From: Candidatus Nanopusillus sp.
Lineage (GTDB): Archaea; Nanobdellota; Nanobdellia; Nanobdellales; Nanobdellaceae
Length of the DNA stretch: 17,716 nt
Assembly: GCA_036845085.1 (NCBI GenBank)
Contig: DAIUEN010000011.1
Location: 1-17,716, forward strand
Direction of reading: 5' to 3'
Position numbers and translations under genes: made by a program. The notes beneath the pieces were generated by a model. The model ran no database searches, was not told where the DNA came from, and saw only the letters and a list, made by a program, of their open reading frames with translations. Shown in pieces: positions 20-17,699 of the stretch (its first letter is position 1; each line of letters begins with the position of its first letter).

Positions 20-91
20 TGGACCCGCCGGGATTCGAACCCGGGACCTTCGGCTTGCAAGGCCGACGTCCTACCACTAGACTACGGGCCC
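20..91 (-). tRNA. tRNA-Ala: tRNA-Ala, anticodon UGC
   Basis: The minus strand reads GGGCCCG-TA-GTCT-AGTGGTA-GGAC-G-TCGGC-CTTGCAA-GCCGA-AGGTC-CCGGG-TTCGAAT-CCCGG-CGGGTCC-A. This is a complete 72-nt cloverleaf with anticodon TGC (59..57), the G3:U70 alanine identity pair and T-loop TTCGAAT. There is no intron and no encoded CCA. It is a strongly GC-rich island in AT-rich DNA. Confidence 0.92.
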
Positions 92-429
92 GTATCTAAT
101 TACATAATCTTTTTCATTATAATTTTTATAAATGAAATTTAAAAATTCTATTAAAAGTCATTATAAGATAAAATAAACTGAAATTAGAAAATTGATAAAA
201 AATTATATTCTTAACAATATACCCAACAAAACCAATACATCTAGTGCTACTACAGAACCCACTACAATTTTGGCATATTCATTATTCATTATATCCGAAT
301 TTATTATCGCATATACTTCTATAATCGTCGTTAATAAAATTATCATAATTGATAATAATTTTCCATCCATCTAACATGTATAAACTTACATATTTATAAA
401 GAATTAAGATATTTATAAAAACAACAATT

Positions 430-1081: not shown

Positions 1082-1687
1082 TTAACTAGATTTCTTTATA
1101 AATTTTCTCAAAAACCTGAAATAAATGAATATAGACAACTGAATTATTAGATAGATAAATATATAAGAAAAAAGCGGATTTAGCCAATTTACATTCAATA
1201 ATGGGATTTTAAATGGAAGTATAATAACTATTGGATCTACATAAAGATTTTTTGGATCTAAAGATTCATTTAAAATTATTATATTTCCATCTGCTTTATA
1301 AAAACCCAAAAATGTCTTATTATAATTTATAGCAAAATACTGATTATATAAGAAAGGATTAGTTAATATAACCTTTGTAGTATTATTTTCATTAACAATA
1401 TTATATCCAAAAGATAAACCATAAGCTACAAATATTAATACTAAAATTCCAACTATAGATAAAATTATCATATGCTTAAACATTACATTGTATATATCTC
1501 TGATTTCATTAAGTATTTTATCCAAATTTTCTATGTTTCCTTTTTTTATTTCTTCTAAATATTTATTATGTATTTCTTTTGCTTTTTCAGTATATTCTCT
1601 TATTCTATTCTTTTTCTCTAAATATTTGGATAAAGATATAAATATTATAGAAACTAATAATACTATCCAAAAAAGCCCAGTTATCAT
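1082..1687 (-). CDS. DUF106 / EMC3-TMCO1-like membrane protein (archaeal YidC/Oxa1-like insertase candidate)
   Basis: The architecture is TM1 (GLFWIVLLVSIIFISL), a charged coiled-coil hairpin (KKNRIREYTEKAKEIHNKYLEEIKKGNIENLDKILNEIRD), TM2, a loop and TM3. The segment ILPFKIPLL..W...FSYIFIYLIIQLSIFIYFRFLRK resembles the LPF..P...W..Y...S...R..L end of DUF106 as I remember it. It occupies the conserved slot between secY and L34e. Its ATG overlaps the secY stop (ATGA at 1684..1687). Confidence 0.5.
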   Translation of the reverse strand: MITGLFWIVLLVSIIFISLSKYLEKKNRIREYTEKAKEIHNKYLEEIKKGNIENLDKILNEIRDIYNVMFKHMIILSIVGILVLIFVAYGLSFGYNIVNENNTTKVILTNPFLYNQYFAINYNKTFLGFYKADGNIIILNESLDPKNLYVDPIVIILPFKIPLLNVNWLNPLFSYIFIYLIIQLSIFIYFRFLRKFIKKSS

Positions 1688-3036
1688 TTTTTTAAGTATT
1701 TACCTATAATTGGTACATATTCTAAGCCCCCATTTTTTTCAAGATCTTGGTATAACTGATTAGCAATTAGAACTAGAAGAAGTATAGAAATGCCACTAAT
1801 AACTGTTCCAACTATATCAGATATTGCTGCAAGAAAACCTACAAAGATACCTGATAAATATCCTACAGGTTTGATATATTTTTCTAAATCTTCTTTTATT
1901 ATTCTTGGATCCCTAGAATATAAACCAAGAGCTGGATTTTCTGTTAGTTGTTTAGCTAAATTATTTGGATCTAGTCCTAAAGCATATATCCAATATAAAG
2001 ACAATAACATTCCGCCAATTGTAAATATTAATAAATATACAAATATGTGAATTATATTTAATGGATCTAATATATATGATACTCCATATTGTCCTAAACT
2101 AAGCAATAATCTTGGAGGGTTCAGCATTCTTACTATAATATTTTGATTATCAAATCCGAATAAATGTTGTATTTGAACTATGATAGCGTAAATAAATATT
2201 ACTGGAATAACAGAAGTGTATAAAACATTTATAGGGAATTTCTGAGTTTCTCCACGAATATTTACATATAATAGAGGAATTTCTATTTTTAGTTTACTCA
2301 AATAAGCTGATAAATATATGATTATGAATGTAAAAAATATTGTGGATACAAAAACTAATCCCATTATAGTATTACCCTGCAAAAAGAAATCAATTGCTAG
2401 TAATAATTCTCCAGTATATTGTATTTGGTCGGCAATGATAGAAAATCCAAATAGTCTTATAAATAATGCAATGCTAATTGATGTAAATATCATAACATTA
2501 ATTCCGGATGTTATTCCATATTTTGATGAAAAATCATCAAGTAACAATATAATAATTCCCCCCACAAATAATTGCAAAAATATAATTACATGTAAGACAA
2601 CTGGATTTATATCTAAAGAGTAATTTGGTATAATTGTACCGCTTAATAATAAAACAAATGCTTCTAATATTATAAATACTATTGCAAAAAATCTATAGTA
2701 TAAATTATATTTTCTCTTTCCGTCTTCTGTAGTAAGATTTATACTTAATATACCCATTCCAATTAGCAATTGCAACAATATAGAAGAAAGTACTATTGGA
2801 CCTATACCCAAAGTAGTTAACGTTCCAAGATTAGATCCAAATAAAATTGCTAATTGTGCTAATCTTTGGGTTACAGAAAGATCCAAACCAAAAATGTAAA
2901 TAGAAGATAAAATTGCATATATTACTATTACTAATAATGTATTTAATACTCTTTCTTTTGTTGTTAAAGTAACTATTGAAGGTTTTATAGATGGAATATA
3001 CTTAGCTATTTTTTCTATCATAGAAGTATCAGACAT
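1684..3036 (-). CDS. secY: Preprotein translocase subunit SecY
   Basis: ATG start, 450 aa, about 10 hydrophobic segments, with an archaeal SecY-like N-terminus (IPSIKPS...LTTKERVLNTLLVIVIYAILSSIYIFG) and C-terminus. It is followed by the DUF106-like gene, L34e and L14e, as in archaeal ribosomal clusters. Confidence 0.9.
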   Translation of the reverse strand: MSDTSMIEKIAKYIPSIKPSIVTLTTKERVLNTLLVIVIYAILSSIYIFGLDLSVTQRLAQLAILFGSNLGTLTTLGIGPIVLSSILLQLLIGMGILSINLTTEDGKRKYNLYYRFFAIVFIILEAFVLLLSGTIIPNYSLDINPVVLHVIIFLQLFVGGIIILLLDDFSSKYGITSGINVMIFTSISIALFIRLFGFSIIADQIQYTGELLLAIDFFLQGNTIMGLVFVSTIFFTFIIIYLSAYLSKLKIEIPLLYVNIRGETQKFPINVLYTSVIPVIFIYAIIVQIQHLFGFDNQNIIVRMLNPPRLLLSLGQYGVSYILDPLNIIHIFVYLLIFTIGGMLLSLYWIYALGLDPNNLAKQLTENPALGLYSRDPRIIKEDLEKYIKPVGYLSGIFVGFLAAISDIVGTVISGISILLLVLIANQLYQDLEKNGGLEYVPIIGKYLKK

Positions 3037-3066
3037 TTATAACGTATTAGGAAAAATTTTTAAAAG

Positions 3067-5232
3067 CTAATCTATACTTCTTCCAGAGAATGTTTGTTTA
3101 GGTCCTTTATACTCGGGAAGATTAGAAAATAGGGAATATGTAAATACACTATAGGGGACAATAGGTTGTTGATTAATATTTTGATAGACAAATTGATATG
3201 GTCCCGATATAGTATAAAAGTTAGGATAACCTGTATTAACACCCAGAGATCCATAATATAAATTTCTTAAACTGTATGGGGAGAATAAATATTCGTATAA
3301 ACCTTCTAATTGACTTAAGCCAGTAGAATAGAAACCACCTGGTTCATGAACAACAATTGTCTCTTTATTTTCTAAAATATCTTTCAACTTATTTAGCTCT
3401 TCCATAACAACATCATCCCAACCCATACCCAATGGCAAATGAGTATCAGATCCCCATTGTGTCTCATGAACATGAATGTGTTTTAAGTATTTTTTATAAT
3501 TATTGAAATTATCTAGCCATTTTAGTATATCTTCTTTAGTATATCCAAATTTTTCATACATTTTTGCGTGTCCAACGTCCCAATTTATTCCTACATGTTT
3601 ATCTACAAATTCTTCTATACTACCATATTCTTTTTTTATCTTATTAATTATATTAAAAAATTCCTTTCTTTTTTCTAATTCTTCTAAAGCTTCTTTAATT
3701 CCTTTCTTTACTTCTTCCATATAGCCAATCAATAATTCAGGTCTAGAAGCTATAGTACCTGCATATGATTGCTCTATTATTATTGTTGGAAAAACTTTGT
3801 CTAAATTCTGTAATATTTGGGGCTCCCTCGATGCTATTCTATTTAGCATATCTATAATAGCATTTTTTACTATTTCTCTTGCATTTTCTCTAGCTAAAAC
3901 ATCTGCAGGATACAAAACAGGTATATTTAAATTTTTAGATTTTTCACCTATAGCTACAATATTTCTGGCTAAATTATCTATTAACCCGGGTCCTTCTTGT
4001 ATATTTTCTGTATTTATACCAAATAAATTTCCAATACTTTTTGATAAATCCTTTATTTTATTATTATCAATATTACCTTCTCTTATCTCTTTAATTTCTT
4101 TTTCTATCTTCTCTAACAGGTCTTTTATACTCTTATCTACACTACGATCAAACATTTTTCTTTCGTAATTATAAATTTCTTCAATTTTATTAGATATTTC
4201 TTTTTTTATCTTATCATCCAGAATATCGCTATTTTTATAATGTTCTAATTTTTCTTTATATTTATCTAAGTAATATTTTATAACATTTTTTAATTTTTCA
4301 TATTCTTCTAAAGAATTTTTTACTTTTTCTATGTATGAGCTGAGATAAAATAAGTGTTCTTTTAAATTTTCTATATTATTTTCTCGTAAGTCTTCTTGTA
4401 TTTGTAATAATATATTTGCAACTTCATGTTTTATATATCCTCTGTTGAATGGTCTTACTATTTCAGATGCTTCTTTAGTATATGCTTCTACAATATTATT
4501 CCAGATATTTTTATTTGTAAGATCTAATTCTTTAATTATATTACCATCTTTTGATACAATTCCTACATGAGAATATAAAACTTCTCCAACCCCTTCTTTC
4601 CTACCCATTGCTTTTTCTGGTTCTAATAATATAGATGCATAAGAATGAACAATCTTTGCAAATAACCAAGAAGGTAATTTATCAACAGAGTCTATATTTT
4701 TATATTCTTCTGCACTTATATATCCTTTTAACAACAATTCTTTTTTTATTTCTTCTAATTTTTTTGGATCTTCTCTTATGTGTTTTTTTACCATTTCTTC
4801 AAATCCTTTATCATATACAGCAGATTCCATATCTCCAGCATGCATATTTACATGCAAAGAATTTCCATAAATATTACCCATAATAGATGCTGTTTCTAAT
4901 ACAGCAGAAACCTTATATGCCATATCCCTCTTAACACTATCTGTAAATCTTTCACCAATAATACTACTCAATTGAAAATCATTTTCTGGTGCATGTAAAG
5001 ATAAATTCATTTCATTTATCCTTGCAAGCCTTGCAGCTTCTTCCCATATAAATTTAGGTATTCTTGCCCACCCTTTATCACCTTCAAAAGTAAATGTTTG
5101 TACCTCTACCCCCTTATAACCTAATAAAGATTTATTTTGTACCTCTAAATGTTGTAAAGGATTGGCAGGATTTGTACTTGTAGAAATTCCTTTATTAAGT
5201 AATTTCCTTGTTATGTCATCATTATTACTCAT
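3067..5232 (-). CDS. Xylose isomerase-like / endonuclease IV-like TIM-barrel protein interrupted by a ~350-aa helical insert, with a Tyr-rich C-terminal tail
   Basis: The long ORF is certainly coding. The track start at 5253 is TTG, and the first ATG is at 5232 (MSNNDD). Using the track's 728-aa numbering, the ordered motifs are SLHAPE (~85), HVNMHAGD (~134), IIIEQSYAG (~491), WDVGHA (~558), HIHVHET (~592), DTHLPLGMG (~603) and VVHEPGG (~634). They reproduce the strand-end metal-ligand pattern of the AP-endonuclease-2/xylose-isomerase TIM-barrel superfamily from memory. Residues ~141-488 are K/E/I/N-rich helical repeats. The family call is by motif recall, not by alignment. Confidence 0.5.
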   Translation of the reverse strand: MSNNDDITRKLLNKGISTSTNPANPLQHLEVQNKSLLGYKGVEVQTFTFEGDKGWARIPKFIWEEAARLARINEMNLSLHAPENDFQLSSIIGERFTDSVKRDMAYKVSAVLETASIMGNIYGNSLHVNMHAGDMESAVYDKGFEEMVKKHIREDPKKLEEIKKELLLKGYISAEEYKNIDSVDKLPSWLFAKIVHSYASILLEPEKAMGRKEGVGEVLYSHVGIVSKDGNIIKELDLTNKNIWNNIVEAYTKEASEIVRPFNRGYIKHEVANILLQIQEDLRENNIENLKEHLFYLSSYIEKVKNSLEEYEKLKNVIKYYLDKYKEKLEHYKNSDILDDKIKKEISNKIEEIYNYERKMFDRSVDKSIKDLLEKIEKEIKEIREGNIDNNKIKDLSKSIGNLFGINTENIQEGPGLIDNLARNIVAIGEKSKNLNIPVLYPADVLARENAREIVKNAIIDMLNRIASREPQILQNLDKVFPTIIIEQSYAGTIASRPELLIGYMEEVKKGIKEALEELEKRKEFFNIINKIKKEYGSIEEFVDKHVGINWDVGHAKMYEKFGYTKEDILKWLDNFNNYKKYLKHIHVHETQWGSDTHLPLGMGWDDVVMEELNKLKDILENKETIVVHEPGGFYSTGLSQLEGLYEYLFSPYSLRNLYYGSLGVNTGYPNFYTISGPYQFVYQNINQQPIVPYSVFTYSLFSNLPEYKGPKQTFSGRSID

Positions 5233-5255
5233 AAATAGATTTATATCTTTCAAAA

Positions 5256-6896
5256 TTAATAAGATAGTAGTCCAAAGGTTTTTTTCATAGAATTATATAT
5301 GGTCCATATTTTTCTAGCAGAAGACATCAAAAAATCAGACTTCTCTTTTTCCGATTGTCTTTCTATTTCTTTTCTTTGTAAATTCTTAGATATTAATTCT
5401 AAGTTATATCCAAAAGTTGTTATAAAAGACATTATTAATTCTAATGGATTTGGAAATACGGATACCTTCTTACTTTCTTCTTTCTTTTCTTCTTCTCTTT
5501 TTTTCATTTCCTCATTTTTTTCAGAAGGAAAATATTTTTCTATCCAATATAAAGATCCTAAAGCTTCAGATATCCTATTATCTTTCATTAATTCTTGTAA
5601 TAATTCTTTAGTCCATTTTATATCATATATTGTATTTATTTCATCTGGCTTTTTATTGCTCTTAGAAGCTACTAACTCAAGTAATTTTTTATCATTTTTT
5701 ATTATATCAAAAATATATACGTCTAATAAGAGCTCTTTTATGTTAGATATATATTCATCCGTCAAACCTGTTGCTAATGTAAAATCTTTCGATAATTTAT
5801 CTAACTTCAAAGAATTATATTCGGACTTTTCCAAAATGTATCCATATATATTAATTTCTAACCTTCCCGAGAATAAGTAATATTTACCATAGTCTTGGGA
5901 CTGAGGAATTGCTCTTCCTTTAATATTGATTTCATATACTGGTATATATGTCTTTTCTATAGGGTCATTTTTAGTTTTGTCCCATTCTTTTATTTTTTTT
6001 TCAGCATCTGTTAATATTAAAGATAAATCTATAACAGTTACATTAAATATATTGACAATATCTGGGGTTTCTTCTCCAGTAATAATAGATTTTTTTGCTA
6101 TTTTAAAATAAGGTTTTATTATTTCAGTATAGTATACTAAAGAATTCAATTCATGTTTTAGATATCCTTTCAATATGTTTATTCTATGTATAACTTCATT
6201 ATAGTGGTATTCCAACCAAGAATAAAAATTAGATAACCTAGAAGATATAACTCCTCTTACTACCTCGTTTAACACATTTTTAGTTTCTTCCGAATCTATT
6301 TGCAAACTTTTATCATTCTTTATATAATTATATAGAGCTTCTCCAATTATTCCCTTGTTTTTCAATTTTTCTATCTCAGACAAAATTTCATATCTAAAAA
6401 ATCCAGCATATGCTGATGGAAAAGTTCTAGAAATATTCCTTAAAGGAGCTGAAGGGTTTATGGTTGGATCTACATAGTCTATCCATCTCTGCTTTAAATA
6501 TTTATAAGCAGCATATGCTTTTTTTTCATCATTTGACTTTAAATCTAAATAACTCTTATATACGGTATATAATAATTGATATTCATTGATAATTGAGATA
6601 ATACTTTTAGTTAATACATTTATTAATTCTCCGATATTACGAAGATTTGATATTAAATTAGCAAAAGTTCTATATGATAAATCTCCAAAAAGTCCAGATG
6701 CAAAAGAGGCATTGTATGTATCTGATATTTTGGATATCTTTAGTTTTAAACTATCTCTTGCAAAATCTATAAGCCAATAATATAGCTTATCAAAAGATAT
6801 ACCTTGGTGATCTAATAAAAAATAAATTTCTAAAATTTTGTGTTTCTTATCTTCAACACTTTCTTTTCTTAGCTCTTCTAAAGTAATCTCTGCCAT
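5256..6896 (-). CDS. Hypothetical 546-aa mostly alpha-helical protein, partner of the TIM-barrel gene
   Basis: The ORF is open to 7112, but I place the start at the ATG at 6896 (MAEITLEELRKE). The upstream 72 codons are low-complexity and would overlap the divergent plus-strand gene. I see no TM segment or signal peptide, and I recognise no family. It has a charged EEMKKREEEKKEESKK linker and an amphipathic C-terminus (KIWTIYNSMKKTFGLLSY). Its stop lies 2 nt (TTG start) or 23 nt (ATG start) before the next gene. Confidence 0.75.
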   Translation of the reverse strand: MAEITLEELRKESVEDKKHKILEIYFLLDHQGISFDKLYYWLIDFARDSLKLKISKISDTYNASFASGLFGDLSYRTFANLISNLRNIGELINVLTKSIISIINEYQLLYTVYKSYLDLKSNDEKKAYAAYKYLKQRWIDYVDPTINPSAPLRNISRTFPSAYAGFFRYEILSEIEKLKNKGIIGEALYNYIKNDKSLQIDSEETKNVLNEVVRGVISSRLSNFYSWLEYHYNEVIHRINILKGYLKHELNSLVYYTEIIKPYFKIAKKSIITGEETPDIVNIFNVTVIDLSLILTDAEKKIKEWDKTKNDPIEKTYIPVYEINIKGRAIPQSQDYGKYYLFSGRLEINIYGYILEKSEYNSLKLDKLSKDFTLATGLTDEYISNIKELLLDVYIFDIIKNDKKLLELVASKSNKKPDEINTIYDIKWTKELLQELMKDNRISEALGSLYWIEKYFPSEKNEEMKKREEEKKEESKKVSVFPNPLELIMSFITTFGYNLELISKNLQRKEIERQSEKEKSDFLMSSARKIWTIYNSMKKTFGLLSY

Positions 6897-6954
6897 AACT
6901 ATATATATAAAAATATTTCCAAAGTTATAAATTTTGAAGTTTCTTACATATTTT

Positions 6955-7494
6955 ATGAAACTGAACTTAATAATAATACCATCAAAAAAATTTTCTGAAG
7001 ATGATCTATATAACTTTATGGATATTTTAGATGGTAAAACATATGTAGCTAATATTAAAAGGAATGTATCTATAGGAAAATATAAATCTTTAGTATTCCC
7101 AGATTTTGACATAAATGAAATATTTATGATGCGAGATCACTATTTTGATAGACTAATATTTTTAGCAGATGAAGGATTCAAAGAATTTATAAATATAAAG
7201 ATTGCTGCAATATTTACAAGATATTTAAATTTATATAAAACAGTAATACTTTCCACATTAGCTCCTATAGCTTTTATTAAGATGAATCTATTACATGGAA
7301 AAAAAATAGTATTTAATTATGAAGAATTTCCAGAATATTTAAAAATAGTAGAAAAATATAGAGCAGAATTTTTATCTGGATATAGTTATTTTGTTGATAA
7401 AAACTTAATAACTGTAAAAGGAAGGGAAACTATATATGAATTAGGGGAAGATCTATTAGAAATAGAAAAAGAATTAAAAAAACTTATGCTATAA
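6955..7494 (+). CDS. Hypothetical protein (179 aa from the first ATG)
   Basis: The track start at 6934 is TTG, and the first ATG is at 6955 (MKLNLIII). The composition is protein-like, and an ORF this long is unlikely by chance in ~75% A+T DNA, where stop codons are frequent. I recognise no family. Its 3' end overlaps the RNR 3' end by 11 nt. Confidence 0.6.
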   Translation: MKLNLIIIPSKKFSEDDLYNFMDILDGKTYVANIKRNVSIGKYKSLVFPDFDINEIFMMRDHYFDRLIFLADEGFKEFINIKIAAIFTRYLNLYKTVILSTLAPIAFIKMNLLHGKKIVFNYEEFPEYLKIVEKYRAEFLSGYSYFVDKNLITVKGRETIYELGEDLLEIEKELKKLML

Positions 7495-10222
7495 TACATT
7501 CAGACCATCCACAATCCATACAAGTTATACATCCACCTTCATGTTTTAATTTATTGCTTCCACATATAGGACATAAAGTTTTGAGATTATCATTTTTATT
7601 TATACTATAACTTGACTGTAGATTAAGCTTAACTTTTCCTACTTGACTTTCTTCTATTTTTTCTTCATATATTAGTTCTTTATATATAGCAGAAAGTTCT
7701 ATTCCTAATGACTTTAATATTTCTAAAGTTTTATTATTTATTTTTCCACTTAAAACCATTTTTAAATACTCCTTTGCTCTGTTCTTACTAGCTTCAGCAG
7801 GAGCATAATATACTTGAGCAGATTTAGAACCTTCCCTATAAATAGTAATTCCTTTACATCCAGATTTGTATGCAAATATATATGCCTTATAGACATCCTC
7901 TGGCTGTACCCATGATGGCATATTTATTGTTTTTGATATAGAAGTCGTTATCCACAATTGTGCTACTGCTTGTGCTCTTACATGATCCCACCATGGGATA
8001 TCCAAAGCTGTTAGGAATACTTTTTTCATATCTTCAGGTATTTCATCCAATCCCATCAAGCTACCACCATTATTTGAAATTTTCTTCAAAAGTTCTTCAT
8101 TATATAAACCTCTTTCTCTCAATTGTCTTTCAAATTCTATGTCTACATAATAATAAGTACCAGCAGTTACTCTTTTTTCATATACAAGAGAATATTGTGG
8201 CTCTATTCCGGATGATACATCGACTAACATAGATATTGAACCTGTTGGAGCAATAGATGTTACTTCTACATTTCTTATACCGTATTTCTTTATTTCTTCA
8301 ACAAGGTAATCCCAATCTAAAGTCCATAAATCTCTATGGTAATATCCTTCTAAAGGAATCTCTCCTTCTGGGTATGATGTTTCATAATATTTTTCAAAAA
8401 CTCCTCTTTCTTTTGCTCTATTAACTGATTCTAGCATAGAATAATAAGTTAAATATTCTGTAACTTTCATAATAAACTTAAATCCTTCTTCAGATGAATA
8501 TGGAATCTTTAATGCGTACATAGCATCTGCAAGACCCATGTATCCTAATCCTATTCTCCTAACAGATTTAGATGCTTTTTCAATTTCTTTTACAGGATAT
8601 TTATTAACATCTATTACATTATCTAAGAATCTGTATGCCCATATTATTGTTTCTTTATATTCTTCCCAGTCAAAATAAACATCACCATTCTTAAACTTTA
8701 TCATAGAGTATAAGTTTATTGATCCTAAATTACATGATTCGTATGGATATAAAGGCTGCTCTCCACATGGATTTGTTGCCTTTATTGGTCCCCTATATTT
8801 GTACATGACATTTCTTCTATTTATATTATCCATAAATAAACATCCTGGATCTGCAGATTTCCAAGCAACAAATGCTATATCATTTAATATGCTTTTTGGG
8901 TCTACATAATTTACTATTGCTTCTTTTGGCACTTTATTGATATCATAATTTAAATCTCCAGGAAATGGAGCATTATATTTACTTAATATTCTTGGATTTA
9001 TTAATGGATATGGTTTATTATCATTATAATACTCCCAAAAGTCAGGGGTAAACATAACAGATATATTAAAATTCGTCAATGTTCCTTCTTGTTCTTTAGC
9101 ATGAATAAATTTCAATATATCTGGATGCCATATTTCTAATATACCCATATTAGCTCCTCTTCTTTTGCCACCCTGTTTTATTACATCTGTTAATGTATCT
9201 ATTATTTTCATAAATGAAACAGGACCGGAAGCTACACCACCAGTAGAAGCAACGACGTCACCTTCTGGTCTTAATTTAGAATAGTTTATACCAACTCCCC
9301 CGCCAGACTTAAATATAAGTGCTGCTTCTTTGGCAGATTCCATTATACTTTCCATATCATCTTTTATATCGATGACAAAACATGCAGATAATTGACCTAA
9401 TCTAGCTCCAGCATTGAATAATGTTGGAGAATTTGGCATGAATTTTTTCTGAGCCATTAAATTAAAGTACTTCAAATAATTTTCGTAATATTTGTCAAAC
9501 TCTCCTTTTTTTATCATATCTAAAAGCTGAGTCCATGTCACCTTCATATGACCCTTTCTGTTTAATTCATCATATAAATATTTCATCCTTTCTAGATGAT
9601 ATCTATTCCATTTAACTTTATATTCCCCATTCTCATATTTTAACCCTATTTTATACTCTAATTCTTCAGGATTAAATTCTTCTTCTGGTTTCACAAACTG
9701 TTTCCCATCTTTATCATATACTCTTGGATCATAAAGTATATCAGGTATAACAACTAATGCTGCAACTCTTTCAAACATTTGTTTAGGTCCTTCTATTAAA
9801 TTTTTATTTTCATCTCTTAGTAAATATCTGTTTACCATCAACTTTATAGCATTCAATGAAAACTTCTTTGCTATATCTTCTTCGTAAAAAGGTCCTAATA
9901 ATTCCATTTTTTCTTTTCTTATTCTTTCTTTTTCTTTTCTATATGTTATATAAGCTTTTGCTACTTCATATAAGTCAAATTTGACTAAAGAATATTCTAT
10001 TATATCTTGAATCTGCTCTACATGTGGTATATTTTCTTCTCCAAACTTTTCATTCAAAATATTAACAATAAACTTTAATATTTCGCTAAGCTTATTAGGA
10101 TCGTATTGTCCTACAGCCTTCATAGCCCTTTCAATCGCGTAAAAGATCCTATATAAATCAAAATCGACAACCCTCCCGTCTCTTTTTATAACTTTTTTAA
10201 CTTTTATAGAAAGGTCCATCAT
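7484..10222 (-). CDS. nrdJ: Class II (adenosylcobalamin-dependent) ribonucleotide reductase with N-terminal ATP-cone and C-terminal Cys4 zinc finger
   Basis: ATG start. The ATP-cone is [24 protein letters not shown]. The class II active-site block is [22 protein letters not shown]. Other matching segments are SPTLFNAG and [15 protein letters not shown]. The C-terminus is CPICGS..(9)..[12 protein letters not shown]. At 912 aa there is no intein-sized insertion. Confidence 0.9.
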
Positions 10223-14005: not shown

Positions 14006-15781
14006 CTATGTTAATATTTCTTCATATCCAATAATAACAGAAGGTTCGGGATATGTATATTTTCTAACAATGATATTATCTATCCACCCAGATGCTTCAG
14101 AAGGAAATATAACAACTCTACCAGCAGAAGTTATTGAATAATCTGTTCTAGATGCTGCTAAAACCATATTTCTCCAATATTCTAACCTATTATCCGATAT
14201 TCTAAACTCTAAAGTATATCGTGTATTTGTTGCAGCAGCAAAGTTTGTTTCTGCTAAAACTGTATCTCCACCATTTACTCTTTTACCTAATTCAGATTCA
14301 CGTCTATCATTTGATAGAGCAATGTAATAGTTGTTAGATATATCTATAAATCTTAAGTGTGCAGAAATACCTGAATTACCATCACTAAATGATGTAAATA
14401 AAACATTAAATCTTAAAGCAACATTCGTCATATTTGGTAGAAGTGTTGTTTTGGGAGAAATATATGAATAATAGCCGGCCGGACAACTAAAAGTTAATCT
14501 CCCATTTGTTGCATCATGTGTAAATGTACATCCACCCATATTACTATACGGTATAGGATGCCATCCAGGGTTGTGTACAATATCATAGTTAGATAAAGTA
14601 TTTGTTGAGAAATCATCATACCAATCAAATACATTATGTGGATTGCTTTCACTAGTAGCATTAGGATTGCCATAATACATGTACACAGTAGCATTACCGT
14701 TAGCTGAAATATACGGTACTTTTATCCATATTATTGTATTAGAAGTATTGCATCCACTTTCTATCCAGTATGGTATTTTATATTCTTTATAGTCTGAGGT
14801 ATTTAAATAAGTGAATCTAACATCACCACAATCTGGTTTCATTTTTCCTTGAGATATTGGGGTTTCTGTATCTACAGTTATATTAATTTGATAATCTATA
14901 AGTGTATTTGTATTTAGTGTATTGTTTACAATTATTTTTCTTAGGTATACTCCCATTACAGATGCAAGAGTTATATTAATAGATTCAGAAGATGATCCAA
15001 AAGTAGATTCAAATGTAGCAGTATAATTTCCTACAGAAGCATTACTATTAGTTATTACAAATGTAACTGAACAAGAATCAGAGTCGGAAACATTACAAGT
15101 CTTATATGGAGAATCGCATAAAAATCCCTCTGGTAAATAACATAAGACCATGACGGTTCCCGAAGTATTACAAGATAAGAAAGTAGTAATGGTAACGGAT
15201 TGGGATTGTCCTTGAACTAAATATATCAATGATTTATCCGAAATAATTGAATAGACATAAGCTGAAGTTGGATTACATCCAGATGGCGGATTATAATATC
15301 TGTCGGAATCGTTTTCTGATGAAGTATATGGTATGTCCTTAATATTAATTTTTGTTAAATATACAAGAGTACGTAAATTATTAGATGTTTCATATACATA
15401 AATACTAATCTGGTTAAAATAGTTACCAAACTGAAAATAACTATAATTGGCCTCTACTTTTAGAAGAGAATTATTTGGATATAGTATATAACCGTAAGGA
15501 TTTATTGGCGTTATTTTTGCATCTTGTTTATTAATTAAAACATTTATATACCTATAATCTATTGGCTCTAAAGGTTTTAGATATAGAATTATCTTAGATT
15601 CGTCATAAGTATAAGATAATAATTCAAATTTAGGATAAAAAGAGTCAGAAATAACATTTGATATAGAATTACCAGTTTGAATAGATCGAAAAATGTCTGA
15701 AGAATATAGATAAGTAAGTAAAGATAAAAAACCTACAGAGAGCACAAAAAATATCATCTCTGGAACATGAGAAGCTTTCAT
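14006..15781 (-). CDS. Prepilin-like (class III signal or signal-anchor) surface protein with Cys-rich Ig-like region, DUF2341 domain and LamG/concanavalin-like lectin domain
   Basis: The N-terminus is MKA-SHVPE-MIFFVLSVGFLSLLTYLY. Residues ~280-385 (RKIIVNNT...DYQINITVD...CGDVRFTY...IPYWIESG...IIWIKVPYISANGNATVYMYYGNPNATS...VFDWYDDF) match the DUF2341 consensus as I recall it. Residues ~385-585, ending GWIDNIIVRKY, look like LamG. I count about 15 N-x-S/T sequons and 10 Cys, six of them within residues ~168-240. Confidence 0.7.
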   Translation of the reverse strand: MKASHVPEMIFFVLSVGFLSLLTYLYSSDIFRSIQTGNSISNVISDSFYPKFELLSYTYDESKIILYLKPLEPIDYRYINVLINKQDAKITPINPYGYILYPNNSLLKVEANYSYFQFGNYFNQISIYVYETSNNLRTLVYLTKINIKDIPYTSSENDSDRYYNPPSGCNPTSAYVYSIISDKSLIYLVQGQSQSVTITTFLSCNTSGTVMVLCYLPEGFLCDSPYKTCNVSDSDSCSVTFVITNSNASVGNYTATFESTFGSSSESINITLASVMGVYLRKIIVNNTLNTNTLIDYQINITVDTETPISQGKMKPDCGDVRFTYLNTSDYKEYKIPYWIESGCNTSNTIIWIKVPYISANGNATVYMYYGNPNATSESNPHNVFDWYDDFSTNTLSNYDIVHNPGWHPIPYSNMGGCTFTHDATNGRLTFSCPAGYYSYISPKTTLLPNMTNVALRFNVLFTSFSDGNSGISAHLRFIDISNNYYIALSNDRRESELGKRVNGGDTVLAETNFAAATNTRYTLEFRISDNRLEYWRNMVLAASRTDYSITSAGRVVIFPSEASGWIDNIIVRKYTYPEPSVIIGYEEILT

Positions 15782-15823
15782 ATTAGTATACTATATATCT
15801 GATAACTTATAAAGTATCACTTA

Positions 15824-16270
15824 TCAACTTATGTATATTAGCGTTAAAAACTTAGTTCCACTACAAGAGATTAATTGTACAAAATTCCAAGAATCTTTTC
15901 TTATACTACTATTTTCAAAATATATTATAGCTTCTTCTCCTGGTAATAATAAATCTACAGGATACAATTTGCTTATGTTATAATAAAAGTTTGTTAAAAT
16001 TCCATTAACATATAACTTATAGCAATTTAAATCTTCTGGTTTGTTTCCTTTATTTTGTATTATTATATAGGGATTTTCATAATTCGACAAATTATTTTTG
16101 AATATTATTAATTCTCTGGACTTTTCGTAGTATCTCTCAGAAATAGACAATCCTATAGTATATAGGTTGTTATAACTGCTTTCGATGATATATTTTATTG
16201 TAAAAATACCGAACAAAAATATAGAGAAAACGACAATTGAAGAAAAAATTGAGGATAGATCAGCTTTCAT
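15824..16270 (-). CDS. Small pilin-like / FlaF-FlaG-like protein (148 aa from second ATG)
   Basis: I prefer the ATG at 16270 (MKADLSSIFSSIVVFSIFLFGIFTI) because it forms an ATGA overlap with the upstream stop (16267..16270). The alternative ATG is at 16282. A single N-terminal hydrophobic helix is followed by a beta-rich domain with the IIIQNKGNKPEDL..YKLYVNG pattern typical of archaeal pilin/FlaF/FlaG folds. It has 3 sequons. Confidence 0.55.
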   Translation of the reverse strand: MKADLSSIFSSIVVFSIFLFGIFTIKYIIESSYNNLYTIGLSISERYYEKSRELIIFKNNLSNYENPYIIIQNKGNKPEDLNCYKLYVNGILTNFYYNISKLYPVDLLLPGEEAIIYFENSSIRKDSWNFVQLISCSGTKFLTLIYIS

Positions 16271-16743
16271 TGTACTAAGCATATACTAGAACTTACATTT
16301 ACAAATATCAATTTTTGATCATCTACTCCATATTCACTGACAACCTTTATATAATAATAACCATTAGAATTCCAACTAGTATTTATTGATATTATACAAT
16401 TTGGTGCCCATATATTAATTTCATTAGGACATTGAACTAAATTTATAGTGATATTTTCTTTTAGATATCCATTAACAAATAATACAGTATTTGACTGATT
16501 TAATAGAGTATTACCATAATTTTTAACATACAAAATCAAATTTCTAGATGAATTATCATATGCACAAGAATCTATCTGTATTATAGTGTTTAACTTATTT
16601 GATATTAGCTCTTGCCTAGATATTGCCGCATTGTTGATATTATTCAAACTATTATAAGATGATGACACAAACAAATATGTTAAAATAGCTGCGGAAATAA
16701 ACAATATTATATTAACTATTATCGTAGCAAACTGTCCTCTCAT
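16267..16743 (-). CDS. Small pilin-like / FlaF-FlaG-like protein (158 aa)
   Basis: The N-terminus is MRG-QFATIIVNIILFISAAILTYLFV: a basic residue, Gly, then a ~22-residue hydrophobic helix, which is class III signal-like. It is followed by LILYVKNYGNTLLNQSNTVLFVNGYL. It has 5 sequons and 4 Cys. Confidence 0.55.
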   Translation of the reverse strand: MRGQFATIIVNIILFISAAILTYLFVSSSYNSLNNINNAAISRQELISNKLNTIIQIDSCAYDNSSRNLILYVKNYGNTLLNQSNTVLFVNGYLKENITINLVQCPNEINIWAPNCIISINTSWNSNGYYYIKVVSEYGVDDQKLIFVNVSSSICLVQ

Positions 16744-16775: not shown

Positions 16776-17591
16776 TTATTCTTCTAGTTCATATCCCTCG
16801 ATGCCTTTGTCTATTACAATTTTTCTCCATTCTAAAAGCTTTTTTTGTCTCATTATTTCATATTCTACAACTTTATCAATTATTTTTAGATTTTGGACTC
16901 CTTTTATTTCTACTTTTTCGCCTTCCGGTATAGAAATGTTTATATCTTGTCTAATTGTTCCCAAACCTCTTTTTACTTTACCAGTTAATCTTAATACTAG
17001 TCCTATATATTCTGCTACTTCTTTAACCTCTTTCAGACTAGTTAAATCTGGTCCAGTAGCTATTTCTATTAGTGGTATTCCCAATCTATCTAATCTATAT
17101 TTAACATAATTTTCTCCTTCCTCAATTTTTCTAGCAGCATCTTCCTCTATACATAAAGTTTGTATTCTTATCTCTTTACCTTTATAATTTATTTTTCCAT
17201 CCAAAGCTAATAACAAAGTCCTTTGAAAACCAGATGTATTTGAACCGTCTACCACTATTTTCCTCATTATCTGAAGAATTTCTGGTATATACATATTAAA
17301 ATACTCTGCTAATAAAATTCCGAATTTTAGCGCTTCTTCATTAATTAAATGCGGCGGTTCTTCATCTAGTTCTACCAAACAAGAATAATCATTTGAATAC
17401 TGATAAAAAAATATCTTATCTTTTTGTGTTTCATATTCTGCAGCTACATCTTTTTTACCAATTTCACTTTGTACTACTCTCAATTTTCTCATAATTTCAT
17501 AATCGTAATGATCTTCTAAGTCGGTTTTACAAGAACAAAATAATTTTTCTTTAGTATTTATTTGTTGATGTATTTCTAAACCAGCTCTCAT
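16776..17591 (-). CDS. gatE: Glu-tRNA(Gln) amidotransferase subunit E, N-terminal (cradle/catalytic) fragment only; split gene
   Basis: MRAGLEIHQQINTKEKLFCSCKT, VVDGSNTSGFQRT, LCIEEDAARK, GIPLIEIATGPD and GTIRQDINISI..G.KVEIKGVQNL are GatE-specific blocks. The ORF stops after 271 aa, whereas GatE is normally about 600+ aa. Downstream are 32 nt and then an unrelated pilin-like gene. Confidence 0.8.
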   Translation of the reverse strand: MRAGLEIHQQINTKEKLFCSCKTDLEDHYDYEIMRKLRVVQSEIGKKDVAAEYETQKDKIFFYQYSNDYSCLVELDEEPPHLINEEALKFGILLAEYFNMYIPEILQIMRKIVVDGSNTSGFQRTLLLALDGKINYKGKEIRIQTLCIEEDAARKIEEGENYVKYRLDRLGIPLIEIATGPDLTSLKEVKEVAEYIGLVLRLTGKVKRGLGTIRQDINISIPEGEKVEIKGVQNLKIIDKVVEYEIMRQKKLLEWRKIVIDKGIEGYELEE

Positions 17592-17625
17592 TATAAAAAT
17601 ATTTTAGTTAAGAAATAAAAATTAT
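17592..17625. promoter_or_regulatory. 34-nt divergent spacer with interleaved TATA-like elements for gatE-N and tRNA-Ala(CGC)
   Basis: TTATAAAAATATTTTA (from 17591) lies at about -35..-20 of tRNA nt 1. On the other strand ATAATTTTTATTT (17625..17613) lies at -34..-22 of the gatE ATG. Calling TATA boxes in AT-rich DNA is weak evidence. Confidence 0.3.
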
Positions 17626-17697
17626 GGGCCCGTAGTCTAGTGGTAGGACGTCGGCCTCGCTAGCCGAAGGTCCCGGGTTCGAATCCCGGCGGGTCCA
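17626..17697 (+). tRNA. tRNA-Ala: tRNA-Ala, anticodon CGC (U at position 37)
   Basis: The sequence is GGGCCCG-TA-GTCT-AGTGGTA-GGAC-G-TCGGC-CTCGCTA-GCCGA-AGGTC-CCGGG-TTCGAAT-CCCGG-CGGGTCC-A. The body is identical to the other copy, including G3:U70. The anticodon is CGC (17658..17660). Nucleotide 37 (17661) is T instead of a purine. There is no intron and no encoded CCA. Confidence 0.85.
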
Positions 17698-17699
17698 TG

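What the first reader, a model, noticed from the sequence alone, without database searches (positions are those of the whole stretch)
3067..6896. An uncharacterised two-gene module is welded to the head of the secY operon
The 546-aa helical protein has no recognisable family. Its features include an acidic/basic EEMKKREEEKKEESKK linker and an amphipathic C-terminal helix. The split TIM-barrel protein follows it, separated by at most 23 nt, and then only 30 nt remain before secY. All these genes are co-oriented. From the promoter region near 6897-6954 down to L14e at 430 there is no obvious room for an internal terminator. The pair may therefore be co-transcribed with the translocon, the insertase and two ribosomal proteins, in the slot normally held by L30/L15. 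Tight linkage of two large unknown proteins to core secretion and translation genes in a minimal genome implies that they matter. This is my best candidate for an undescribed system: an envelope-, translocon- or nucleoid-associated scaffold-plus-enzyme pair.
Basis: inference. Interest (0 to 1): 0.7.

Follow-up and report, generated by a model that had tools for sequence, protein, structure and literature searches.

The report
Conserved nanoarchaeal orphan-plus-metalloenzyme gene pair
Two large genes upstream of secY are a real, conserved and uncharacterised pair, an orphan protein plus an endonuclease-IV-like metal enzyme with a huge inserted domain, found across hundreds of nanoarchaeal genomes, but their position next to secY is a local rearrangement in one family and not evidence of a role in secretion.

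Summary
On the minus strand, gene A (5256-6896, 546 aa) is followed after 23 nt by gene B (3067-5232, 721 aa), and secY starts 30 nt later.

A matches no Pfam, NCBIfam, PHROG or PADLOC family and no PDB or BFVD fold. It is nevertheless a large family, with 544 clusters at 50% identity. B is a xylose-isomerase-like TIM barrel split by a helical insert of about 300 aa. It has ten invariant His/Asp/Glu, nine of which map onto the endonuclease IV tri-metal site. Its closest solved relative is the uncharacterised MJ1311.

The A-B linkage is deep:
- A lies directly upstream of B in 10/10 Nanopusillaceae-type loci.
- A lies upstream on the same strand in 46/55 Woese-/Pacearchaeota loci.
- In the wider phylum the order is A, a small acidic protein, B, then a roughly 290-aa nucleotidyltransferase (49/51). 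secY is never nearby (0/51).

Only Nanopusillaceae place secY after B. There the 30-32-nt spacer carries a conserved TATA-like box about 28 nt upstream of the secY ATG (13/13 loci) and a T5 run. I therefore predict separate transcription units, A-B and secY-yidC-like.

The function is unknown. My best guess is a cytoplasmic metallo-phosphoesterase with an adaptor subunit. It is not the housekeeping AP endonuclease, because N. acidilobi also has canonical Endo IV and ExoIII.

The parts
6897..6954 (.). Divergent promoter region between gene A and the 179-aa DJ-1/PfpI-like gene
   Evidence: 58-nt spacer. A TATA-like TTTATAA lies at -35..-29 of the A start codon. Relatives keep a T-rich TATA-like element at about -30 of A.
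5256..6896 (-). Gene A: 546-aa orphan alpha/beta protein, the proposed non-enzymatic partner or adaptor of B
   Evidence: No Pfam, NCBIfam, PHROG or PADLOC hit. 33 homologues by word-index search. 544 cluster representatives at E<=1e-3 in the exhaustive profile search. AF2 model pLDDT 69.6. No Foldseek match in PDB or BFVD.
5466..5513 (-). K/E-rich disordered linker of A (residues 462-477)
   Evidence: Sequence seen directly. Model pLDDT is below 50 over residues 461-485. An equivalent charged linker occurs across the family.
5277..5402 (-). C-terminal helix of A (residues 499-540), ending in a conserved Y..YKK.HGM-type motif
   Evidence: Helix 499-540 in the model. The C-terminal motif is conserved from Nanopusillaceae to distant members.
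5233..5255 (-). A-B spacer, 23 nt, with no promoter-like or terminator-like signal
   Evidence: No TATA-like motif at -34..-26 of the B start in the window and in 12/13 related loci. No T5 run after the A stop codon. The spacer is 22-28 nt in 10/10 Nanopusillaceae-type loci.
3067..5232 (-). Gene B: 721-aa xylose-isomerase-like TIM-barrel metalloenzyme (arCOG01895 in the N. acidilobi ortholog)
   Evidence: Pfam AP_endonuc_2 at 38.9 bits, cut-off 31.1. AF2 pLDDT 75, pTM 0.75. Foldseek top hit is S. aureus endonuclease IV at prob 0.99, followed by tagatose epimerase and xylose isomerase. Closest PDB sequence is MJ1311, E=1.7e-10. Relatives are encoded in 455 GTDB species genomes.
4828..5190 (-). 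B, N-terminal half of the barrel (strands 1-4, residues about 15-135), with invariant H80 and H131
   Evidence: Strands at 17-19, 41-45, 76-80 and 127-131 in the model. H80 and H131 are invariant in 49 sequences.
3913..4827 (-). B, helical insert of about 300 aa between strand 4 and strand 5 (residues about 136-440)
   Evidence: Seven helices between residues 232 and 425 in the model. Poorly conserved, and about 90 aa longer in Nanopusillaceae than in other lineages. Only coiled-coil-type sequence matches (Nsp1/Nup62, Rad50).
3337..3912 (-). B, C-terminal half of the barrel (strands 5-8, residues about 441-632), with invariant E487, D552, H555, H585, H587, D596, H598 and E630
   Evidence: Invariant in 49 sequences. 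D552, H555, H587, D596 and H598 align with E. coli Endo IV D179, H182, H216, D229 and H231. E630 pairs with E261 in the hhalign alignment.
3070..3336 (-). B, disordered aromatic/Gly-rich tail (residues 633-721) with conserved terminal motifs
   Evidence: Model pLDDT is about 30, yet G644, G685, P690, Y694, F702, L705, P706, G710, G711, S716 and G717 are at least 90% conserved. I infer a docking tail.
3037..3066 (-). B-secY spacer with a TATA-like box (3057-3065) and a T5 run (3052-3056). Predicted end of the A-B unit and promoter of secY
   Evidence: Spacer length is 30-32 nt and TTTAAAAAT/TTTATAAAT sits at -30..-21 of the secY ATG in 13/13 loci. The T5 run starts at +11 after the B stop codon.
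1684..3036 (-). secY. A neighbour in this family only, not part of the module
   Evidence: Pfam SecY, E=1.1e-46. Follows B in 11/11 Nanopusillaceae-type loci and in 0/51 other loci.
1082..1687 (-). 201-aa YidC/DUF106-like membrane protein, overlapping secY by 4 nt
   Evidence: Weak EMC3_TMCO1 hit, E=0.016. The N. acidilobi ortholog Nps_03015 is annotated OxaA/YidC, arCOG02673 (PMC4935971).
6955..7494 (+). Divergent 179-aa gene, conserved next to A in Nanopusillaceae
   Evidence: 56% identical to the Nanobdella counterpart. Present in all Nanopusillaceae-type loci with enough upstream sequence. The N. acidilobi ortholog Nps_02995 is annotated as a putative intracellular protease/amidase, arCOG00769. 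It is unrelated to the acidic 'C' protein of other lineages.

Best explanation
A and B are a conserved bicistronic pair that belongs to a gene cluster found across Nanoarchaeota in the broad sense. It is not part of the secY operon. The ancestral order is A, a disordered acidic protein 'C' of about 190 aa, B, then a Pol-beta-type nucleotidyltransferase of about 290 aa.

In the Nanopusillaceae lineage C and the nucleotidyltransferase are no longer adjacent, and A and B have both grown by about 100 aa. The remnant of the archaeal secY-(adk)-DUF106-(cmk)-L34e-L14e cluster has been placed directly downstream. secY there has its own TATA box positioned for a leaderless or very short-leader mRNA.

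B is a cytoplasmic TIM-barrel metalloenzyme. Its invariant His/Asp/Glu set reproduces the three-metal site of endonuclease IV. Its active-site face is covered by a lineage-variable helical cap domain.

A has no catalytic motif. I propose it is the adaptor or regulatory subunit that binds B, probably through the conserved disordered tails that A, B and C all carry.

The most likely chemistry is hydrolysis of a phosphoester. Candidate substrates are a nucleic-acid 3' end or another phosphodiester-linked adduct, which the nucleotidyltransferase could make or extend in lineages that keep it.

What is shown: gene order, conservation, fold class, the invariant ligand set, and the promoter- and terminator-like signals. 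What is inferred: physical A-B interaction, metal content, substrate, and transcript boundaries.

My confidence by claim: about 0.85 for the organisation, about 0.65 for 'Endo IV-type multi-metal hydrolase', and about 0.3 for a nucleic-acid or phosphoester end-processing role.
For: Linkage:
- A is directly upstream of B in 10/10 Nanopusillaceae-type loci. It is upstream on the same strand in 46/55 other Nanoarchaeota loci.
- The nucleotidyltransferase lies downstream of B in 49/51 of those other loci. secY is present in 0/51.

Family sizes: 544 A cluster representatives and 455 species genomes with B.

Enzyme class of B:
- Pfam AP_endonuc_2 above its cut-off.
- An eight-strand barrel in the model.
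- Foldseek top hit is endonuclease IV, prob 0.99.
- Ten invariant His/Asp/Glu in 49 sequences.
- The C-terminal ligands align with Nfo D179, H182, H216, D229 and H231.
- H80, H131 and E487 end strands 3, 4 and 5, as H69, H109 and E145 do in Nfo (plus my knowledge of the 1QTW structure; the Nfo sequence was verified).

Transcription units: the TATA-like box before secY is conserved in 13/13 loci, against 1/13 before B. The positional enrichments are statistically strong.

Localisation: neither protein has a transmembrane segment, and B is acidic. No signal-peptide predictor was run.

Assembly: disordered tails with conserved residues occur in A, B and C.
Against: - No experiment and no complex prediction supports A-B binding.
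- Sequence similarity of B to Nfo is marginal (hhalign E=0.09, hmmsearch E=0.02 in a one-sequence space). An automatic MAFFT alignment misplaced the three N-terminal ligands.
- NCBIfam gives only weak hits, to sugar epimerases and isomerases.
- The large cap over the active site may exclude duplex DNA.
- N. acidilobi already has canonical Endo IV and ExoIII, so B is not needed for ordinary AP-site repair.
- The nucleotidyltransferase looks more like a minimal NTase (MntA or aminoglycoside-NTase type) than a polymerase.
- 9 of 55 loci lack A upstream of B.
- The TATA and oligo-T signals are predictions in a genome of about 26% GC. My motif definition was fixed only after I had looked at the sequences.
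Confidence: 0.5

Rival explanations
1. A and B are co-transcribed with secY, the YidC-like insertase and two ribosomal proteins, and they act as a translocon-, envelope- or nucleoid-associated scaffold-plus-enzyme pair.
For: Spacers are tight (23 and 30 nt) and all genes share one orientation. The A-B-secY-yidC-like-L34e-L14e block is conserved across Nanopusillaceae genera, including Nanobdella, YN1 and Nanobsidianus. Read-through transcription is common in archaea (general knowledge).
Against: secY is never near A-B outside this family (0/51). A conserved TATA-like box and a T5 run lie in the spacer. A and B have no transmembrane segment; no signal-peptide predictor was run. In other lineages the module sits with a nucleotidyltransferase and among translation-related genes.
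Confidence: 0.1
2. B is an ordinary sugar or sugar-phosphate isomerase/epimerase of the xylose-isomerase-like superfamily, and A is an unrelated or regulatory neighbour.
For: PF01261 covers many isomerases. The Foldseek list includes D-tagatose 3-epimerase, xylose isomerase and rhamnose isomerase at prob 0.9-0.98. There are weak NCBIfam hits to fructoselysine 3-epimerase and hydroxypyruvate isomerase. Several database entries name B a 'sugar phosphate isomerase/epimerase'.
Against: From my knowledge of the D-tagatose and D-psicose 3-epimerase structures, isomerases of this fold use a Glu-Asp-His-Glu site. B has six further invariant residues (H80, H131, H555, H585, D596, H598). These include the D-x-H pair and the strand-3 and strand-4 histidines typical of the Endo IV three-metal site. 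The nearest solved sequence is MJ1311, which is listed as the predicted Endo IV homologue of M. jannaschii (PMC2770678). Metabolism in these genomes is minimal, yet the pair is retained.
Confidence: 0.15
3. B is the cell's AP endonuclease or 3'-repair diesterase for base excision repair, and A is its scaffold.
For: Endo IV-like ligand set and fold. NCBI names the Nanobdella protein 'AP endonuclease'. The N. acidilobi annotation reads 'AP endonuclease family enzyme'.
Against: N. acidilobi also encodes a canonical Endonuclease IV (Nps_01285, arCOG01894, detected in the proteome) and Exonuclease III (Nps_02390). B belongs to a different group, arCOG01895. There is no NCBIfam Nfo hit. From the B sequence and my knowledge of 1QTW, the DNA-contacting motif after the first ligand (H69-D-S-Y-L in Nfo) is replaced by H-A-P. 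A 300-aa cap covers the catalytic face.
Confidence: 0.1
4. B works like a multinuclear non-haem iron TIM-barrel enzyme paired with a partner protein (the MbnB/MbnC type, recalled from memory). It would modify a protein or peptide substrate, such as the acidic protein C or the conserved tails, with A as the substrate-recruiting partner.
For: A multi-metal TIM barrel sits next to an orphan partner gene, and in most lineages next to a small, disordered, acidic protein with a conserved C-terminal motif. The resemblance to MNIO systems rests on my memory, not on a test.
Against: No DUF692 Pfam hit. No MbnB or TglH structures among the top 50 Foldseek PDB matches. C is absent from the Nanopusillaceae locus.
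Confidence: 0.1
5. A and the helical insert of B form a structural, cytoskeleton-like or pore-forming-like assembly, and the barrel has lost its catalytic role.
For: Long helices of 42-62 residues plus long beta strands in A. Weak Foldseek matches of A to Cyt and volvatoxin folds, and of the B insert to MakE and HblL1.
Against: All those matches have probability 0.2 or lower and E>0.07. Invariance of every metal ligand in 49 diverse sequences argues for an active enzyme. No secretion signal or hydrophobic segment was seen.
Confidence: 0.05

Closest known systems
MJ1311 of Methanocaldococcus jannaschii (PDB 3WQO), an uncharacterised xylose-isomerase-like TIM-barrel protein
   Same: It is the only solved structure with significant sequence similarity to B (E=1.7e-10 with the 49-sequence profile). 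It shares the D-x-G-H and H-V-H...D-x-H-L-x-x-G-x-G motifs of strands 6 and 7. It is listed as the predicted Endo IV homologue of M. jannaschii (PMC2770678).
   Different: MJ1311 is a plain 293-aa barrel. B carries an insert of about 300 aa between strands 4 and 5, and a conserved disordered tail of about 90 aa. B is always paired with the orphan gene A. MJ1311 itself has no assigned function.
Endonuclease IV (Nfo; E. coli 1QTW, S. aureus 8AXY)
   Same: It is the top fold match (prob 0.99). Invariant B residues correspond to all nine Zn ligands. Five align directly (D179, H182, H216, D229, H231). E261 aligns in hhalign. H69, H109 and E145 correspond by strand position.
   Different: No significant sequence membership. 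The arCOGs differ (01895 versus 01894). A canonical Endo IV coexists with B in N. acidilobi. The Nfo DNA-binding motif after H69 is not kept. B has the large cap domain and the tail.
Archaeal secY-adk-DUF106(YidC-like)-cmk-L34e-L14e gene string at the end of the ribosomal protein super-operon (general knowledge)
   Same: The window keeps secY, the YidC-like gene, L34e and L14e in that order.
   Different: adk and cmk are missing from the string, and L30/L15 do not precede secY. In N. acidilobi L15 lies elsewhere (Nps_03330). A-B occupy the upstream position only in Nanopusillaceae, and a promoter-like box separates them from secY.
Multinuclear non-haem iron TIM-barrel enzymes with partner proteins (MbnB/MbnC type). 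Functional analogy only, recalled from memory
   Same: A multi-metal TIM barrel encoded next to an obligatory non-catalytic partner and a small substrate-like protein.
   Different: No DUF692 signature and no fold match in the top 50. A shows no detectable similarity to any known partner family.

Membership tests
Xylose isomerase-like TIM barrel (Pfam PF01261, AP_endonuc_2) - protein B | Profile match above the curated gathering score | tested here: met
   38.9 bits against a cut-off of 31.1, residues 516-616. PF01261 is precomputed for nearly all of the 120 listed homologues.
Xylose isomerase-like TIM barrel (Pfam PF01261, AP_endonuc_2) - protein B | Eight-stranded beta/alpha barrel fold | tested here: met
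   Eight strands in order in the AF2 model, pTM 0.75. Foldseek hits to Endo IV, tagatose epimerase and xylose isomerase at prob 0.96-0.99, covering about 190 columns.
Endonuclease IV (Nfo) family - protein B | Nine conserved metal ligands (H69, H109, E145, D179, H182, H216, D229, H231, E261 in E. coli) | tested here: inconclusive
   D552, H555, H587, D596 and H598 align with D179, H182, H216, D229 and H231 and are invariant. E630 aligns with E261 in hhalign only. H80, H131 and E487 correspond by strand position, but MAFFT misaligned them.
Endonuclease IV (Nfo) family - protein B | Significant sequence similarity to Nfo orthologues, or the same orthologous group | tested here: not met
   No Nfo model among the NCBIfam hits. 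hhalign E=0.09 and hmmsearch E=0.02 against a single sequence. The N. acidilobi ortholog is arCOG01895, while its true Endo IV is arCOG01894.
Endonuclease IV (Nfo) family - protein B | AP-site incision or 3'-diesterase activity on DNA | not testable with these tools
   Needs biochemistry.
Multinuclear non-haem iron enzymes (DUF692/MbnB-like) with partner - proteins B and A | DUF692 profile match or a close fold match to MbnB/TglH | tested here: not met
   No such Pfam hit. None among the top 50 PDB Foldseek matches.
secY (spc-type) operon membership - genes A and B | Adjacency to secY conserved wherever the genes occur | tested here: not met
   secY lies downstream of B in 11/11 Nanopusillaceae-type loci and in 0/51 other Nanoarchaeota loci.
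secY (spc-type) operon membership - genes A and B | Co-transcription with secY | not testable with these tools
   Only sequence signals are available. A conserved TATA-like box occurs at -30..-21 of secY in 13/13 loci, with a T5 run after B. These argue for a boundary but do not prove one.
Any described protein family or fold - protein A | A profile or structural match | tested here: not met

The most novel reading that the evidence does not exclude
A, the acidic protein C, B and the nucleotidyltransferase together form a previously undescribed multi-protein machine found across Nanoarchaeota in the broad sense (Woese-, Pace- and Nanopusillaceae lineages). It would be built around a capped three-metal TIM-barrel enzyme and an adaptor with a new fold. 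It would carry out a paired add-and-remove or heal-and-extend reaction on a nucleic-acid end or a protein tail, a reaction these host-dependent archaea cannot do without. Nanopusillaceae would keep a streamlined two-subunit version.
Probability: 0.25. Interest if true: 0.7.

Novelty: new variant of a known kind. Interest (0 to 1): 0.45.

Why it matters
Nanoarchaeota and their Woese- and Pacearchaeota relatives have tiny genomes and depend on hosts, so every large conserved gene is a clue to what they must do for themselves. This pair takes up about 3.8 kb of a genome of roughly 0.6 Mb (the size of the related complete genomes). It is kept in hundreds of species, and one partner has no detectable relative in any family or structure library searched.

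Two results are useful. First, the true conserved partners are an acidic disordered protein and a nucleotidyltransferase, not the translocon. That points experiments in the right direction and avoids a misleading 'secretion' label. Second, the data suggest that short intergenic spacers in these genomes still hold complete promoter and terminator signals. This is a caution for operon calls in AT-rich archaeal genomes.

Tried and rejected
- Word-index homology search with full-length B found only B itself, because the K/E-rich insert dominated the candidate list. Repeating it with a barrel-only alignment gave 171 hits.
The B alignment was used instead.
- Global hhalign of B against Nfo gave nonsense. 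The local mode gave a usable C-terminal alignment.
- MAFFT L-INS-i placed the N-terminal ligands inconsistently.
- I asked whether the 194-aa middle protein of distant loci is a detached piece of A or B. It is not.
- I asked whether the divergent 179-aa gene is that middle protein relocated. It is not.
- A defence-system or viral origin for A and B has no support from PADLOC or PHROGs.
- The bacterial sigma-70 and hairpin-terminator scan gave counts equal to shuffled sequence, and it does not apply to archaea anyway.
- Repeats and Rfam found only chance AT-rich repeats and two tRNAs.
- The N. acidilobi proteome did not detect A, B or secY. This is uninformative, because only about 200 proteins were seen.
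- Literature searches for MJ1311, arCOG01895, and DPANN with 'xylose isomerase-like' found no functional study.

Full report
**Layout.** The window is AT-rich (about 26% GC). Between 430 and 7494 the minus strand carries, in order of transcription:
- gene A (5256-6896, 546 aa)
- gene B (3067-5232, 721 aa from the ATG)
- secY (1684-3036)
- a 201-aa membrane protein (1082-1687) that overlaps secY by 4 nt
- L34e (824-1072)
- L14e (430-795)

The spacers are 23 nt (A-B) and 30 nt (B-secY). Upstream, a 179-aa gene (6955-7494) diverges from A across a 58-nt spacer.

**Gene A.** A has no match in Pfam, NCBIfam, PADLOC or PHROGs.
- A word-index search found 33 homologues. All are from Nanopusillus, Nanobdella, strain YN1 and related metagenome bins, plus three distant proteins at 25-31% identity.
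- An exhaustive profile search found 544 cluster representatives at E<=1e-3, of which 212 are below 1e-30. Most are 450-540 aa long.
- None of 38 diverse members shares a Pfam domain.
- The AlphaFold model (pLDDT 69.6) is not purely helical. It has strands at 20-33 and 53-63, very long helices (68-118, 211-272), and a sheet of long strands (287-356). Further helices follow, then a disordered K/E linker (461-485) and a C-terminal helix (499-540).
- Foldseek found nothing credible in PDB (best E 0.2) or BFVD. Deeper libraries were not available.
- The conserved residues contain no recognisable catalytic or nucleotide-binding motif.

**Gene B.** Pfam places residues 516-616 in AP_endonuc_2, above the cut-off.
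- A barrel-only alignment recovered 171 homologues, mostly 585-720 aa.
- A tblastn-confirmed scan found relatives in 455 GTDB species genomes. The best 80 are labelled Nanopusillaceae, Woesearchaeota, Pacearchaeota or Nanoarchaeota.
- The model (pLDDT 75, pTM 0.75) shows strands 1-4 at residues 17-131 and strands 5-8 at 483-629. A helical domain of about 300 residues lies between them, and residues 633-721 form a disordered tail.
- Across 49 diverse sequences H80, H131, E487, D552, H555, H585, H587, D596, H598 and E630 are invariant. Many tail residues are at least 90% conserved.
- The top fold match is S. aureus endonuclease IV (prob 0.99), followed by tagatose epimerase and xylose isomerases.
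- The only solved structure with significant sequence similarity is MJ1311. It is uncharacterised, and one paper lists it as the predicted Endo IV homologue of M. jannaschii (PMC2770678).

**The metal site of B.** I verified the E. coli Nfo sequence against 1QTW.
- The Nfo ligands D179, H182, H216, D229 and H231 align with D552, H555, H587, D596 and H598.
- E261 aligns with E630.
- H80, H131 and E487 end strands 3, 4 and 5, as H69, H109 and E145 do in Nfo. This rests plus my knowledge of the Nfo structure. An automatic alignment did not reproduce it, so this part is an inference.

B is not a member of the Nfo orthologous group. Sequence similarity is marginal. In N. acidilobi the B ortholog is arCOG01895, while a canonical Endo IV (arCOG01894) and an ExoIII are also present (PMC4935971 supplement).

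**Synteny.** I built HMMs for A, B, the neighbouring proteins, secY, L34e and L14e. I searched them against six-frame ORFs of 90 fetched loci and tallied the 79 GTDB loci (L012-L090).

| Feature | Nanopusillaceae-type loci (Nanobdella, YN1, Nanobsidianus, Nanopusillus) | Other Nanoarchaeota loci |
|---|---|---|
| A upstream of B, same strand | 10/10, 22-28 nt away | 46/55 (34 within 1.2 kb; median gap 708 nt) |
| secY downstream of B | 11/11 | 0/51 |
| ~290-aa PF01909 nucleotidyltransferase downstream of B | 0/11 | 49/51 |

- In the other lineages the gap between A and B holds a poorly conserved, acidic, disordered protein of about 190 aa with a conserved C-terminal motif.
- That middle protein is not a fragment of A or B. 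It is also not the divergent 179-aa gene.
- The A-B linkage is therefore much older than the link to secY, which is specific to one family.
- In that family A and B are each about 100 aa longer than elsewhere.

**Transcription signals.** Archaeal promoters use a TATA box about 26 nt upstream of the start site, and archaeal terminators are short oligo-T runs (established knowledge).
- In this window a TATA-like motif begins at -34..-26 of the ATG in 10 of 18 genes, against about 10% for random positions (p=1.6e-6). secY and L34e have one. B and the YidC-like gene do not.
- T5+ runs occur within 35 nt after the stop codon in 9 of 18 genes, against 7.6% expected (p=2e-6). B has one and A does not.
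- Across 13 related loci the B-secY spacer stays at 30-32 nt. It always carries TTTAAAAAT or TTTATAAAT at -30..-21 of the secY ATG. This holds even though the flanking B coding sequence has diverged to 33-36% protein identity.
- B has such a motif in only 1 of 13 loci.

I therefore predict the units A-B, secY-yidC-like and L34e(-L14e), with leaderless or near-leaderless mRNAs. These are predictions. Many of the 13 loci are close relatives (about five independent lineages). I fixed the motif definition only after viewing the sequences. Read-through also remains possible.

**Function.** Neither protein has a transmembrane segment. B and the middle protein are acidic, and the nucleotidyltransferase is basic. 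Every metal ligand is invariant, which argues that B is an active enzyme. The ligand set argues for a multi-metal hydrolase rather than a Glu-Asp-His-Glu isomerase. The insert emerges from the loop after strand 4, which is on the catalytic face, so it probably caps or gates the active site (inferred).

A, B and the middle protein each end in a disordered segment with a conserved terminal motif. That suits a multi-subunit assembly. I commit to the following model, at about 0.3 confidence for the substrate class:
- B is a capped, Endo IV-type metallo-phosphoesterase.
- A is its non-catalytic adaptor.
- Together they process a phosphoester-linked end or adduct that the nucleotidyltransferase makes or extends in lineages that retain it.

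The rivals are scored in the rival-explanations section: translocon association, a sugar isomerase, the housekeeping AP endonuclease, an MNIO-like protein modifier, and a structural assembly.

**Novelty.** B is a new architectural variant of a known superfamily. A is an orphan family. The four-gene cluster does not appear in the literature I could search. The nearest mention is a module of 51 mostly unknown families specific to Pace- and Woesearchaeota (PMC8204110).

The conserved orphan-plus-enzyme pair is the part worth following. Interest is moderate at 0.45.

Noticed in passing
window 1082-1687 and 1684-3036 (-): secY and the 201-aa YidC/DUF106-like gene overlap by 4 nt, and the latter has no TATA-like motif of its own. 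They are probably a translationally coupled pair. The N. acidilobi ortholog is annotated OxaA/YidC (arCOG02673).
   Followed up: partly
window 203-370 (-): A 55-aa ORF after L14e with two hydrophobic stretches that look like membrane helices (read by eye from the sequence). It is 47% identical to a 55-aa ORF at the same position in Nanobdella. It has no Pfam hit, and a TATA-like motif lies at -30.
   Followed up: partly
window 16776-17591 (-): A 271-aa ORF that matches only the N-terminal catalytic domain of GatB/GatE (GatB_N). It may be a split or truncated amidotransferase subunit, as is known for split genes in Nanoarchaeota.
   Followed up: no
window 20-91 (-) and 17625-17698 (+): Two tRNA-Ala genes (anticodons TGC and CGC) sit at the two ends of the window.
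   Followed up: no
window 6955-7494 (+) and 7484-10222 (-): The divergent 179-aa gene converges on the class II ribonucleotide reductase gene, and their 3' ends overlap by 11 nt. The N. acidilobi ortholog is annotated as a DJ-1/PfpI-type protease/amidase, but Pfam support here is only E=0.098.
   Followed up: partly
whole window (18 gene starts and stops): TATA-like motifs cluster at -34..-26 of start codons, even inside upstream coding sequence (for example before L34e, where the spacer is only 9 nt). T5+ runs cluster just after stop codons. This suggests mostly leaderless, individually promoted genes despite very short spacers.
   Followed up: yes
L006, L009, L010, L011 and most of L024-L090, downstream of B: In Woese-/Pacearchaeota a nucleotidyltransferase of about 290 aa (PF01909/PF18765), with a basic Lys-rich N-terminus in at least the L009 copy, follows B. 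A second NTase of 520-600 aa lies 4-6 kb further on the opposite strand, near L10e and L35Ae.
   Followed up: partly
L006 11409-11993, L009 7186-7749, L010 7341-7970, L011 7331-7846: The gene between A and B in non-Nanopusillaceae lineages encodes a highly charged, mostly acidic, apparently disordered protein of about 190 aa. It ends in a conserved Y.VK..R...PFER...KY motif and matches no family.
   Followed up: partly
window 14006-16743 (-): A 591-aa DUF2341 protein lies next to a 152-aa unknown ORF and a 158-aa ORF with a weak archaeal flagellin/pilin match. This may be a surface-filament cluster. The public gene call on the same contig splits the 591-aa ORF into 154 and 381 aa.
   Followed up: no
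N. acidilobi genome table (PMC4935971 supplement): L15 (Nps_03330) lies next to L19e and HisRS, far from secY. The ribosomal super-operon is therefore fragmented in this family. 'Minimal nucleotidyltransferase fused to HEPN' genes (Nps_01570/01575) exist elsewhere and might be the relocated NTase partner.
   Followed up: no
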